In this document: positions 58,501 to 61,500 of the stretch, piece by piece
Layout: the number at the start of each line of letters is the position of its first letter
Position numbering within the stretch: position 1 is the stretch's first letter
Source: Octopus vulgaris
Taxonomy: Eukaryota
Reading direction: 5' to 3'
Length of the DNA: 64,000 nucleotides
NCBI GenBank assembly: GCA_951406725.2
Contig: OX597832.1
Location: forward strand, 51,026,001 to 51,090,000
Program-made: the position numbers

Positions 58501-61500
58501 AAATGATAGAGCACTGTATTGACCTCATCTATTTACAGAGAAGGTGGGTTCGAATCTCAGGGGTAGCCTTCAACCTTTTCTTACCAAAATGAATTTTAAC
58601 CCAATATCCACATATTATTTATAGCTTTACAAATACAAATGTATTTATCATGAACAGTTTAAAAAAAAAGGGGGACATTTGCAGTGAAGAAATAAAAAAA
58701 AATAATGAAGCAAAACAAATCAATAATAATTAAACAATAAACATGAAAGTCAAATGTAAAATTCTGCTATAAAAGCTTCAATCATCTTCATCCTTTAACA
58801 TCTGCTTTCCATGTTGGCATGGATGGGTTGGATGGTTTGACCAGAGCTGGCAAGCTAGAGAGCTGCACCAGATTCCAGTCTGATTTGGATTGGTTTCTAC
58901 AGCTGGATGCCCTTCCTTTGAAATAGAAACTTCTCAGAAAGATTTTTCGTAAGTGAAGGCATGTGGTTGTATAGTTAAGAAGTTTGCTTTGTAACGACAT
59001 GGTTTGGGTTTCAGTCCCACCATGTGGCATTTTGGACAAGGGCTGACCATTGCCCTGTGAGTGAATTTTGTAGACAGAAACTGTGTGGGAATTTGTTATG
59101 TATGTGTGTGTGTCTTTGTATCTGTGTTTGTCCTCTCTTCCTGCAGTGTGGCAACCAGCGTTGGTTTGTTTATGCCCCATTAATTTAGGTGTCTTGGCAA
59201 AATAGGTCAATAGAATAAGTACCAGACTTGAAAAACACGTACTTGGATGAATTTATTCGACTAAACCCTTCGAGGCAATGGCAGAAAGAAGTAAAAAATA
59301 AAAGATAAATCAATGGAGGTCTGGACTTTGGTGATGTTTATAGAATGAATTGTGGTGAAAAGGTGCCACGTTTTGAAGTAACTATTAACATAATACAGTT
59401 CTATATTTAAGAGATGAGGAATTATGTACATTATTTACATTCAACGGATATTTGTCCTCATCTTGTTTGTTGTTAACACGTTTCGGCTGATATATCCTCC
59501 AGCCTTCATCAGGTGTCTTGGGGAAATTTCGAACCTGGGTTCTCATTCCTAAGGTATTTTTCGATGTTATTATTTTTATTATTATTGTTATTGTTCAGGT
59601 CACTGCTTGGAATCGAACTCGGAATCTTGGGGTTAGTAGCCCGCACTCTTAACCACTATGCCATATGCCCATGGGCCTGGCCAGATATTTAGTAAGATTG
59701 GTGCATCGTTGTCAGTTTGCTGGTGACTATATCTTCATTAAACTTCAAGACATTTACAATAAACAATTATTAAAAATACCTTAGGAATGAGAACCCAGGT
59801 TCGAAATTTCCCCCAAAACACCTTAAGATGGCTGGAGGGTATATCAGCCGAAATGTGTTAACAACCAACAAGATGAGAGCAAATATCCGTCATCATCATC
59901 ATCATCGTTTAACGTCCGCTTTCCGTGCTAGCATGGGTTGGACGGTTCAACTGGGGTCTGGGAAGCCAGAAGGCTGCACCAGGCCAGTCAGATCTGGCAG
60001 TGTTTCTACAGCTGGATGCCCTTCCTAATGCCAACCACTCCGTGAGTGTAGTGGGTGCTTTTTATGTACCACAGACACAGGTGCCAGATGAGGCTGGCGA
60101 ACGGCCACGGTCGGATGGTGCTTTTTACGTGCCACCGGCACGGAGGGTACGCAAGGCTGGCAACGGCCACGAGCGGATGGTGTTTGTTACGTGCCACCAG
60201 CACGGAGGCCAGTCGATGTGGTGCTGGCTACGGCCACGTTCGGATGGTTGAATGTAAATAATGTAAATAACTATTAACGTGTTGCTCAGTGAATGTACAA
60301 ATATTTCACCAAATACGTAGCAAGTTTAACAAAAACATAAGCTCACTTTTCTTTTTCTTCTTCTTGTCCCCACCGACTCCAAGGAGGTCCAGGTCCAAAT
60401 CTCCCGTCATGCTCTCTTCTTCTGAACTGATCTCTTCGTACTGCATACTTTCAGTGTCTAGATCGATACCATCTGAAGTTAAAACAGAACCTAATTCAAC
60501 TAAAACAGATAATTATGATGCTTCGTTTCTCCTGTCGCATTTGCAAACAATAGAAAAAGGAAAATTATTCATGTAAATCTCTATATATTAATAATAATAA
60601 TATTACCATATTTTAATGCATATAAGGAATCCCCTTTTTTTTAAATCAAAAATTAGGTTTAAAAAATATGGTTGCTTCTTATACATGGATAGTATTATAA
60701 TCCCTTACAAAACCATTTTTCAAATTAGGGGGTTCCTTATACACGTTGAAATACGGTGGTGGCAGTTGTGGTGGTAATAATAATAATGATAATAATAATA
60801 ATAATAATAATAAATGCCCTGATCCTTTTTCTTAGTGTATTAAATTAGTGACTGGAAAAACAACATAACAAAAAGGCACTATGTAAAACTAAAATGGAAT
60901 TTTTACTGACTGCAATCTCATGTTATCATACATGAAATAATAACGTTTCTCTATTTCCACTGAGATTTTAATTCAAATATGAATATTTTAACCCTTATGA
61001 TACCAACCCACTCAAGACCAACCCTGCTTCTATGATACAAACTTTTGTTAGCACGCTGGGCGAAATGCGTAGCCGTATTTCGTCTGCCATTACATTCTGA
61101 GTTCAAATTCCGCCAAGGTTGACTTTGTCTTTCATCCTTTAGGGGTCAATAAAATTAAGTACCAGTTACGCACTGGGGTCAATATAATCAACTTAATTCA
61201 TTTGTCTGTCCTTGTTTGTCCCCTCTGTGTTTAGCCCCTTGTGGGTAATAAAGAAACATGATATAAACTTTCTATAGAAAATTATCTAAATTAAAATTTC
61301 CCATTCAAATTCCAAACTAATCTATGTCCTAGTTACCAACTAAGTAATGACCAAGATATTTGAGTAAATTCCTTGTCATTTTCAAAATTAATTGATATAA
61401 AGAGGATGTAGGTCAACAGAAATATGATAACAAAAGGGCCAATAAGATGTTAATTGGGACCACAGGTATTTCAGAGGCTGGGTGAAAAGGTTAACCCTTT

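What the first reader, a model, noticed from the sequence alone, without database searches (positions are those of the whole stretch)
59397..59890. Insertion architecture suggests reverse-transcriptase template switching onto the host transcript
Seen: the order is [full SINE, minus 59397-59671][exon fragment 59674-59769][partial SINE, plus 59771-59890]. On the plus strand the exon fragment and the partial SINE both read in their RNA sense and are fused, and the two SINE arms are inverted repeats enclosing the captured piece. The sister copy at 38834-39105 also has a small 5' inversion. Established: Penelope-like insertions often carry 5' inverted partial repeats. Inference: the cDNA jumped from element RNA onto nearby ZC3H13 (pre-)mRNA. 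This could be a general mechanism that creates local antisense exon copies.
Basis: partly seen in the sequence, partly recalled or inferred. Interest (0 to 1): 0.7.

Follow-up and report, generated by a model that had tools for sequence, protein, structure and literature searches.

The report
Inverted SINE pair enclosing exon copy
In an intron of the octopus ZC3H13 gene, one ancient jumping-gene insertion left two back-to-back copies of a short mobile element with a 96-base backwards copy of the next exon trapped between them; it is a neat but single example of a known kind of messy insertion.

Summary
59674-59769 is an inverted 96-nt copy (88/96) of nt 97-191 of the ZC3H13 exon at 58167-57949 (minus strand; 99% to Octopus sinensis ZC3H13). 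It lies flush between a full-length SINE (minus, 59396-59673) and a 5'-truncated copy of the same SINE (plus, 59772-59890).

The plus arm continues at 60249-60267, beyond a younger nested SINE (59891-60248). The whole composite is bracketed by an 11-nt target-site duplication, TAACTATTAAC (59379-59389 and 60268-60278), which occurs only twice in the window (empirical P about 0.0025). Neither arm has its own duplication. So both arms and the filler arose in one integration event, joined by short microhomologies.

What templated the filler is not settled. The piece crosses no splice junction and carries no A-to-G marks. An inverted source 1.3 kb away, on the side of the break that primed the full copy, also fits fold-back copying of resected genomic DNA, as described for LINE-1 insertions. 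I favour the DNA template (about 0.5) over nascent pre-mRNA (about 0.27). The Penelope link and generality are untested: no cephalopod genome could be searched, and the only other copy in the window has a 16-nt self-inversion and no captured piece. Editing is unproven.

The parts
59379..59389 (+). Left target-site duplication TAACTATTAAC (14-nt version 59376-59389 matches the right copy 13/14)
   Evidence: This 11-mer occurs exactly twice in the window, on either strand. The repeat finder D14. 49 of 20000 random window pairs at the same spacing share >=11 nt.
59390..59395 (-). ATAATA: A/T-rich run between the duplication and the SINE 3' end. It may be a variable tail or untemplated bases.
   Evidence: The sister copy has a different A/T-rich run after the same ...GAACTG end.
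59396..59673 (-). Full-length SINE, sense on the minus strand (the gene's sense strand). The head with A-box- and B-box-like motifs is at about 59598-59670, followed by an (AAT)n-like run, a body and a non-poly(A) tail.
   Evidence: 92% identity to the sister copy over 262 columns. Three-way alignment. The box motifs were read by eye against recalled consensus. ARAGORN and Rfam call no tRNA here.
59674..59769 (+). Filler: copy of ZC3H13 exon nt 97-191. It reads exon sense on the plus strand, so it is antisense within the ZC3H13 pre-mRNA. It carries a frame-breaking 1-nt insertion. The exon register may run on to 59778.
59772..59890 (+). Plus arm, part a: 5'-truncated copy of the same SINE. It starts just after the element's A/T-rich run and lacks the head.
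   Evidence: 119 columns, 91.6% identity to 59561-59444. Inner 42 nt are 100% complementary (I3).
59891..60248 (-). Younger nested SINE of a different, abundant family, inserted into the plus arm. It is not part of the original event. Minus orientation is inferred from its (GAT)n-like end.
   Evidence: Many alignments start exactly at 59891, and there are more than 15 further places in the window. It contains internal 62-67-nt repeats (D1, D2, D5).
60249..60267 (+). Plus arm, part b: continuation of the SINE toward its 3' end. It stops about 27 nt short of the element's 3' end and overlaps the right duplication by TAA (60268-60270).
   Evidence: 24 nt at 96% identity between 60247-60270 and 59445-59422 (I5). 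Junction registers.
60268..60278 (+). Right target-site duplication TAACTATTAAC, 68 nt downstream (in the transcript) of the 5' splice site at 60346/60345.
57949..58167 (-). Source exon of ZC3H13 (219 nt, aa 1493-1565 of the O. sinensis protein). The copied tract is 57977-58071.
60347..60490 (-). Preceding ZC3H13 exon. The intron that holds the composite is 60346-58168.
   Evidence: Local tblastn of the named O. sinensis protein against the window, plus reading of the AG/GT borders.
38833..39105 (-). Sister copy of the SINE. It is 5'-truncated within the head and capped by a 16-nt inverted repeat of its own sequence (39090-39105). It has no captured host DNA and no clear target-site duplication (longest shared word 5 nt).

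Best explanation
One retrotransposition event of a tRNA-promoter-type SINE into the ZC3H13 intron produced a head-to-head inverted dimer with a templated filler.

Shown:
- A staggered break at TAACTATTAAC.
- A full-length copy laid down from the left end, with the plus-strand 3'-OH as primer.
- A second, overlapping 5'-truncated copy pointing the other way and reaching the right end.
- Between their 5' ends, 96 nt copied from a template 1.3-1.6 kb to the left.
- Short shared stretches at two junctions and flush boundaries throughout.

Inferred, and my preferred reading: the filler was copied from genomic DNA, not RNA. After first-strand synthesis, the left break end was resected. Its cDNA-extended 3' overhang folded back on its own strand about 1.3 kb upstream, possibly primed by 1-2 shared bases (the element's 5' end cannot be fixed without a consensus), and copied 96 nt. 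That yields an inverted duplicate which happens to lie in the exon. The new 3' end then paired through AAATA, either with the element's own cDNA (snap-back, as in the sister copy) or with a second cDNA primed from the other break end. The product was sealed to the right end through TAA. A different SINE later landed in the plus arm.

Consequence, inferred: the pre-mRNA now carries a long intronic SINE hairpin and, in its loop, a 96-nt antisense match to the next exon. These are potential ADAR or splicing-modulating duplexes, but nothing here shows they act.
For: Single event:
- The 11-nt duplication brackets the whole composite and occurs nowhere else in the window. It is 13/14 over 14 nt (D14).
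- Empirical chance is 49/20000.
- The longest shared words for each arm taken alone are 5 and 6 nt.
- Exon homology is confined to 59674-59769, and the outer flanks show no homology to the exon region.
- The family is rare in the window (3 pieces at 2 loci), so chance adjacency within 100 nt is unlikely.
- Divergences agree with one age: arms 10/119, copy versus exon 8/96. By my reading of the alignment, 4 of those 8 form one clustered change.

Template switching:
- AAATA (59774-59778) fits both the exon and SINE registers, and TAA (60268-60270) fits both the SINE and target registers.

DNA fold-back:
- The source is in cis, inverted, 1318 nt from the break (59389 minus 58071), on the side of the end that primed the abutting full-length copy. 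This is the geometry that model requires.
- The sister copy shows that cDNA ends of this family do snap back on DNA (16-nt self-inversion).
- L1 insertions with local inversions or inverted duplications of nearby genomic DNA are reported in bioRxiv 10.1101/2024.12.14.628481 (passages read). There the target-site duplication is preserved, 2-bp microhomology is seen, and the events are attributed to self-annealing of resected 3' overhangs.
- This is the only local unique inverted duplication in the 64-kb window, and it sits exactly at a TPRT junction.
Against: - Nothing in the sequence excludes an RNA template.
- The piece is wholly exonic. If the template were drawn evenly from about 3 kb left of the break, that would happen by chance only about 4% of the time ((219-96)/3000, my estimate).
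- Fold-back inverted duplications documented in yeast are mostly 5-34 bp and use microhomology next to the break (PMC11724301, abstract). In the L1 preprint the inverted-duplication cases imply small hairpins. Here the loop would be about 1.3 kb plus the cDNA.
- The plus arm has about 7-8 private differences against about 2-3 in the same 119 nt of the full copy (my reading of alignment A1). This is not expected if both were born identical, although it is not significant.
- The family consensus, and hence the true 5' end and the microhomology at junction A, cannot be established from 3 copies.
Confidence: 0.5

Rival explanations
1. Both break ends primed reverse transcription of SINE RNA. The cDNA growing from the right end left the SINE RNA just 3' of its A/T-rich run and jumped, guided by AAATA-type microhomology, onto nascent ZC3H13 pre-mRNA tethered at the locus. 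It copied 96 nt of the downstream exon and was then joined to the full-length cDNA from the left end.
For: - On the plus strand the exon piece and the truncated SINE are both in RNA sense and fused, with a stretch that fits both templates.
- The plus arm stops about 27 nt short of the element's 3' end at a TAA shared with the target. This fits internal initiation.
- A purified Penelope-like RT cleaves and extends both strands and initiates internally (PMC11167929, section 3 part 1 read).
- Inverted 5'-truncated copies next to full copies are typical of Penelope-like elements, and Naiad families occur in Octopus spp. (PMC8557442, passages).
- Chimeric retrocopies made of fused cellular transcripts are documented (PMC2104539, abstract start in the listing).
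- The piece is exonic, and the insertion lies in the same transcription unit.
Against: - There is no splice junction in the piece and no A-to-G footprint (0 of 8 differences).
- Orientation is uninformative, because a jump from the other cDNA would give the opposite orientation.
- A pre-mRNA template is mostly intron, so exonic content is no better explained than by DNA.
- Nothing in this model forces the source to lie within 1.6 kb on the left side.
- None of the searches I ran surfaced a case of capture of the host gene's own nascent transcript.
- The arms overlap by about 140 nt, so two RNA molecules would be needed.
Confidence: 0.27
2. Capture in trans of mature ZC3H13 mRNA, or of an RNA chimera made by RNA ligation before reverse transcription, as proposed for U6/L1 chimeras.
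For: - The fragment is purely exonic.
- RNA ligation upstream of chimeric retrocopies is reported (PMC6789731, abstract start in the listing).
Against: - A random cellular mRNA would almost never be the host gene's own, let alone the exon next to the insertion site.
- The stretch shared by both templates at junction B is not needed for ligation.
- No exon-exon junction is present.
Confidence: 0.03
3. Separate events: an older inverted duplication of the exon region, later flanked by two independent SINE insertions, or two independent SINE insertions with unrelated spacer DNA.
For: - SINEs are dense here: 38% of the window has at least one other copy.
- Inverted SINE pairs of the abundant family occur elsewhere, for example 29643-29884 / 30256-30496.
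- The arms differ by 8.4%.
Against: - One target-site duplication brackets the whole composite and none brackets the single arms.
- Exon homology ends within 0-3 nt of both arm ends and does not resume outside them.
- The family has only 2 loci in 64 kb.
Confidence: 0.05
4. The composite is a maintained, functional editing-site complementary sequence or splicing regulator for the ZC3H13 exon, rather than a neutral scar.
For: - The isolated duplex between the intronic copy and the exon is -146.2 kcal/mol, against -28.2 +/- 4.3 for 100 shuffles.
- With the plus arm blocked, 90 of 96 copy positions pair with the exon.
- The host is an octopus. That coleoid cephalopods edit mRNA heavily is recalled, not taken from a call.
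Against: - In the nested minimum-energy fold of the 2.6-kb pre-mRNA segment, the two SINE arms pair with each other (108+21 pairs; arm duplex -183.5 kcal/mol). The exon copy is left in the hairpin loop, and the alternative costs 76 kcal/mol.
- The copy has decayed about as much as the SINE arms, so there is no sign of constraint.
- No editing data for octopus ZC3H13 surfaced: 4 papers hold both words, 3 are listed, and none is about this by title.
Confidence: 0.08

Closest known systems
LINE-1 insertions with local genomic inversion or inverted duplication by remodelling of TPRT break ends (bioRxiv 10.1101/2024.12.14.628481; passages read)
   Same: A retroelement insertion carries an inverted copy of nearby genomic DNA at the junction. 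The target-site duplication is preserved, microhomology at the inversion junction is very short, and the source lies within resection range of the break.
   Different: Here the element is a non-poly(A) SINE in an octopus. The filler sits between two inverted copies of the element, not between the element and the flank. The fold-back loop would be about 1.3 kb with the source retained, whereas the reported inverted duplications imply small hairpins. The event is fixed in the germ line, not found in a cancer or a clone.
Penelope-like element insertion architecture (PMC8557442, passages; PMC11167929, section 3 part 1)
   Same: A full copy has an inverted 5'-truncated copy immediately adjacent at its 5' end. 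Extension from both target strands and internal initiation would give exactly two outward-pointing 3' ends, one of them short of the element's end.
   Different: There is no RT/GIY-YIG ORF, no pseudo-LTR tandem and no hammerhead motif. The element looks like a pol III SINE. A 30-40-nt tail extension is not evident, and the target is not a microsatellite. A shared 3' end with any Penelope-like element could not be tested.
Twin priming 5' inversions of L1 (named in passages and in PMC2837659, abstract start in the listing; the defining details are recalled)
   Same: The target-site duplication surrounds an insertion whose 5' part is inverted, and the second strand's 3'-OH primes at an internal site by microhomology.
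   Different: In twin priming the two segments are complementary parts of one RNA. Here the arms duplicate about 140 nt of each other, each reaches toward its own 3' end, and foreign sequence lies between them.
Chimeric retrocopies from RT template switching (for example PMC2104539, abstract start in the listing; U6/L1 chimeras, PMC6789731, listing)
   Same: A host-derived piece is fused in the same sense to a 5'-truncated retroelement inside one set of target-site duplications.
   Different: Known 5' partners are whole small RNAs or mRNAs from elsewhere. Here the partner is an internal 96-nt exon piece from 1.6 kb away in the host gene, and an RNA origin is unproven.
Intronic editing-site complementary sequences and inverted intronic SINE pairs as ADAR substrates (general knowledge, recalled; PMC5080714 seen only in the listing)
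   Same: An intronic sequence complementary to an exon, and an inverted SINE pair in an intron, can both form long duplexes in the pre-mRNA.
   Different: No editing, conservation or function is shown. The SINE hairpin is predicted to outcompete the exon pairing.

Membership tests
tRNA-derived SINE | Internal pol III A and B boxes at tRNA-like positions in the 5' head | tested here: met
   TGGCATAGTGG lies at head positions 8-18 and AGTTCGATTCC at 52-62, counted from 59670 downward on the minus strand (read). The consensus boxes are recalled, not from a tool.
tRNA-derived SINE | Head recognisable as a tRNA by structure-aware models | tested here: not met
   ARAGORN finds 0 genes in the window. 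No Rfam tRNA match at E<=10 in 59380-59900.
tRNA-derived SINE | Short, non-coding, dispersed copies with target-site duplications | tested here: inconclusive
   There are 2 loci in the window. The element is about 278 nt and has no matching ORF. An 11-nt duplication is present at the composite, but only a 5-nt word at the sister. The genome-wide copy number is unknown.
Non-autonomous element mobilised by a Penelope-like element | Inverted 5'-truncated copy adjacent to the 5' end of a full copy | tested here: met
   The feature is as described in PMC8557442.
Non-autonomous element mobilised by a Penelope-like element | Hammerhead ribozyme motif (canonical clades) | tested here: not met
   No Rfam hammerhead at E<=1 over 6 kb or at E<=10 over 521 nt. 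A CTGATGA...GAAAC look-alike in the full copy is private to that copy. Naiad-type elements lack the motif anyway.
Non-autonomous element mobilised by a Penelope-like element | 3' end shared with an autonomous Penelope-like element of the same genome | not testable with these tools
   None of the 102 ORFs of >=90 aa in the window has an RT or GIY-YIG domain. No cephalopod genome collection could be searched.
Chimeric retrocopy by RT template switching onto a cellular RNA | Host piece fused in the same sense to the 5'-truncated element, inside one target-site duplication | tested here: met
Chimeric retrocopy by RT template switching onto a cellular RNA | Host piece demonstrably RNA-derived (spliced junction, transcript end, or editing marks) | tested here: not met
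   The piece covers exon nt 97-191 only, inside one exon. 0 of 8 differences are A-to-G.
L1-type twin priming inversion | Inverted and direct segments are adjoining, essentially non-overlapping parts of one RNA | tested here: not met
   The arms share 119 + about 20 nt of the same element region.
TPRT-associated local inverted duplication (break-end fold-back) | Inverted copy of nearby genomic DNA at the insertion junction, source retained, target-site duplication preserved, short microhomology | tested here: met
   The source is 1318 nt from the left break, inverted and retained. Duplication. Shared stretches.
TPRT-associated local inverted duplication (break-end fold-back) | Template was DNA rather than RNA | not testable with these tools
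   One locus cannot tell. This needs the family-wide census or an experimental system.
Intronic editing-site complementary sequence | Long intron-exon duplex in the pre-mRNA | tested here: inconclusive
   The isolated duplex is -146.2 kcal/mol. The nested MFE instead pairs the SINE arms, and the exon pairing appears only when the plus arm is blocked, 76 kcal/mol higher. Pseudoknots were not modelled.
Intronic editing-site complementary sequence | Observed A-to-I editing of the paired exon and conservation of the intronic element | not testable with these tools
   No RNA data or related genomes were available. The literature search found nothing specific.

The most novel reading that the evidence does not exclude
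During SINE integration in octopus genes, the reverse transcriptase recurrently jumps onto the nascent transcript of the gene being hit. This would plant antisense exon pieces in the neighbouring intron, which then act as ready-made complementary strands for ADAR. It would be a mutational mechanism feeding the exceptional recoding-type RNA editing of coleoid cephalopods.
Probability: 0.06. Interest if true: 0.85.

Novelty: new member of a known kind. Interest (0 to 1): 0.4.

Why it matters
As it stands, this is a well-resolved fossil of a complex target-primed insertion in a mollusc. It has an inverted SINE dimer, a templated filler, one target-site duplication and three readable junctions. 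It shows that the untidy outcomes described for human L1 and for Penelope-like elements also occur with an octopus SINE.

It would matter more if the filler proved to be RNA-templated, or if such fillers were common. The same event type would then explain how intronic antisense matches to exons arise at a stroke. That is one open question about the origin of editing-site complementary sequences, and it is especially relevant in an animal group known for heavy mRNA editing (recalled). The locus also gives a concrete test: an exon (nt 97-191 of 58167-57949) with a 96-nt antisense partner 1.6 kb upstream in the same pre-mRNA.

Tried and rejected
- Hammerhead ribozyme in the SINE body. CTGATGA...GAAAC caught my eye in the full copy. 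There is no Rfam hit, and the T that makes the motif is private to one of the three copies. Rejected.
- tRNA call for the head. ARAGORN and Rfam are negative. Only promoter-box look-alikes remain.
- Own target-site duplications for each arm, the sister copy and the nested SINE. The longest shared words are 5-6 nt. Nothing usable.
- Continuation of exon-region homology outside the arms. None found.
- Partner LINE or Penelope-like element in the window. None of 102 ORFs has an RT or endonuclease domain, and the SINE tail matches only its own family.
- Editing footprint in the copy. No A-to-G among the 8 differences.
- Short translated fragments of the exon that might show edited variants. No candidates.
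- Pfam on the exon peptide. No family.
- Literature on octopus ZC3H13 editing, on capture of host nascent RNA at insertion sites and on a retrotransposon origin of exon-complementary sequences. Nothing specific surfaced. The searches cover only the held library.
- Supplementary editing-site tables of cephalopod papers were not opened.
- One search failed on a mistyped anchor and was redone. One search was a wrong-frame translation and was not used. Searches were rejected for a character in a search term and were re-sent without it.
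Full report
**What is there**

The window carries the 3' part of an octopus ZC3H13 gene on the minus strand. The 72-aa translation of the 219-nt exon 58167-57949 is 99% identical to 'zinc finger CCCH domain-containing protein 13 isoform X2 [Octopus sinensis]', E 2.5e-38. It is 69% identical to a second, unnamed 1634-aa protein.

A local tblastn of the named protein places further exons at 62208-61762, about 60490-60347, 55058-54789 and 53540-53397. 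The finding lies in the 2179-nt intron 60346-58168.

- 59674-59769 is an inverted copy of exon nt 97-191 (58071-57977). It matches in 88 of 96 columns, E 1.5e-34, and this is the only such match in the window.
- To its left lies a full copy of a ~278-nt SINE on the minus strand (59396-59673).
- To its right lies a 5'-truncated copy of the same SINE on the plus strand (59772-59890). The two match at 109/119, and the inner 42 nt are perfectly complementary.
- A sister copy at 38833-39089 is 92% identical. It ends in a 16-nt inverted repeat of its own sequence.
- Only 1 of the 5 ZC3H13 exons in the window has a second copy.
- In the whole window there are just three local two-copy duplications, and this is the only inverted one.
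- The ~8% divergences rule out an assembly artefact.

First, the plus arm does not end at 59890. A SINE of a different, very abundant family (59891-60248; more than 15 further places in the window) is nested in it. The arm resumes at 60249-60267 (I5, 50).

Second, the 11-mer TAACTATTAAC occurs exactly twice in the window: at 59379-59389 and 60268-60278. These positions are immediately outside the two outward-pointing 3' ends (13/14 over 14 nt).
- Random pairs of flanks at the same spacing share 11 nt or more in 49 of 20000 trials.
- Each arm taken alone shares only 5-6 nt across its ends.
- Exon homology stops within 0-3 nt of both inner arm ends and does not resume outside.

The full copy, the filler and the truncated copy are therefore the product of one integration at one staggered break. 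The nested SINE came later. Divergences fit a single age: arms 10/119, copy versus exon 8/96. By my reading, four of those eight form one clustered change.

**The junctions**

- **Junction A, SINE head to filler.** The exon register starts at 59674. The element's true 5' end cannot be fixed from three copies, so the overlap is undetermined.
- **Junction B, filler to plus arm.** After a 4-nt patch that fits neither template, AAATA (59774-59778) fits both the exon and the SINE registers.
- **Junction C, plus arm to right flank.** TAA (60268-60270) fits both the SINE and the target. The arm stops about 27 nt short of the element's 3' end.

These are the marks of microhomology-guided switching and joining.

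**The nature of the element**

The head has A-box- and B-box-like words at tRNA positions. This is read by eye against recalled consensus. Neither ARAGORN nor the Rfam tRNA model calls it.

A hammerhead-like CTGATGA...GAAAC in the full copy gave no Rfam hit. It also depends on a base private to that copy, so I reject it.

None of the 102 ORFs of >=90 aa in the window has an RT or endonuclease domain. The partner element is unknown.

**Mechanism**

Two coherent routes give exactly this product.

The right-end cDNA jumps onto ZC3H13 pre-mRNA, copies 96 nt, and is joined to the full-length left-end cDNA. Support from print:
- Penelope-like elements often carry an inverted 5'-truncated copy at the 5' end, and occur in Octopus spp. 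(PMC8557442, passages).
- A purified Penelope-like RT cleaves and extends both strands and initiates internally (PMC11167929, section 3 part 1).
- Chimeric retrocopies of fused cellular transcripts exist (PMC2104539, listing abstract).

*DNA route.* The left end, extended by the full-length cDNA and resected, folds back on its own strand 1.3 kb upstream and copies 96 nt. Its new end then pairs via AAATA with the element's cDNA or with a second cDNA. Support:
- L1 insertions with local inversions or inverted duplications are reported (bioRxiv 10.1101/2024.12.14.628481, passages). In those cases the target-site duplication is preserved, 2-bp microhomology is seen, and self-annealing of resected 3' overhangs is proposed as the cause.
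- The sister copy's 16-nt self-inversion can only be DNA-templated or need a second RNA molecule.

**Weighing the two routes**

It does not discriminate. A jump from the full-length cDNA would give the other orientation, so the RNA route allows both. The DNA route forces the observed one.

The source is in cis, on the left, inverted, and 1318 nt from the break. The DNA route predicts exactly this; the RNA route does not.

The piece is exonic, but it crosses no splice junction and shows 0 A-to-G among 8 differences. Pre-mRNA is as intron-rich as DNA, and the case was selected because it is an exon.

Against the DNA route:
- Documented fold-back duplications are usually much shorter and closer to the break (PMC11724301, abstract).
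- The plus arm has more private differences than the full copy.

I put the DNA fold-back at about 0.5, nascent pre-mRNA at about 0.27, separate events at about 0.05, and trans mRNA or RNA ligation at about 0.03.

**Consequences**

In the pre-mRNA the copy is antisense to the next exon. The isolated duplex is -146.2 kcal/mol, against -28.2 +/- 4.3 for shuffles.

The two SINE arms pair more strongly (-183.5 kcal/mol). In the nested minimum-energy fold of the 2.6-kb segment they take each other (108+21 pairs) and leave the exon copy in the loop. With the plus arm blocked, 90 of 96 positions pair with the exon, at a cost of 76 kcal/mol. Loop-to-exon pairing was not modelled.

No editing data on octopus ZC3H13 surfaced. 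The copy shows no sign of constraint. An editing or splicing role is possible but unshown.

**What stayed unchecked**

- The census of the family could not be run.
- Orthologous loci in other octopuses were not examined.
- Supplementary editing-site tables were not opened.
- No RNA data were available.

**Verdict**

The single-event, template-switching architecture is well supported. An RNA template, the Penelope link and generality are not established. This is a new, clean example of known kinds of complex target-primed insertion, and of moderate interest.

Noticed in passing
window 59891-60248 (also e.g. 42451-42768, 62988-63332, 29628-29879, 30261-30612, 57454-57818): A very abundant SINE-like family with a (GAT)n/(ATC)n end and two to three internal 62-67-nt tandem units. 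More than 15 places in the 64-kb window match it, and one copy is nested in the plus arm with at most a 1-2-nt duplication.
   Followed up: partly
window 28191-28600, 4350-4790, 10801-11373: Short elements with long, 92-98% complementary terminal inverted repeats (59-131 nt arms, 97-321 nt apart). They look like miniature inverted-repeat DNA transposons.
   Followed up: no
window 49491-49703 / 51689-51918 and 50740-50916 / 51022-51196: The only two local direct two-copy duplications in the window (84% and 95% identity). They lie downstream of the ZC3H13 stop, so in the 3' UTR or intergenic DNA.
   Followed up: no
window 3382-4200(-), 26961-27230(+), 41389-43341(-): Other genes in the window by Pfam: SARAF (E 1.4e-52), a PACRG-like exon (ParcG, E 5e-6) and USB1-like exons (HVSL, E 5e-16 and 6e-9). 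The sister SINE copy at 38.8-39.1 kb lies just beyond the USB1-like exons.
   Followed up: no
window 57972-57974 (codon in exon 58167-57949): The one residue that differs from the O. sinensis protein (Thr here, Arg there, in KHL[T/R]EIK) lies in the ACGG that is replaced by TTAA at junction B of the intronic copy. The window is therefore not the O. sinensis reference allele.
   Followed up: no
window 29643-29884 / 30256-30496: Two copies of the abundant SINE lie in inverted orientation, 371-570 nt apart (89-91% complementary). By the alignment ends they are tail-to-tail, unlike the head-to-head pair of the finding, and are probably independent insertions.
   Followed up: partly
window 59520-59561 / 59772-59813 versus 59444-59529 / 59805-59890: Divergence between the two arms is uneven. 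The inner 42 nt have no mismatch, while the outer 86-nt pair reported (I1) is 87% complementary. This could be chance, conversion within the hairpin, or error-prone copying of the outer part.
   Followed up: no
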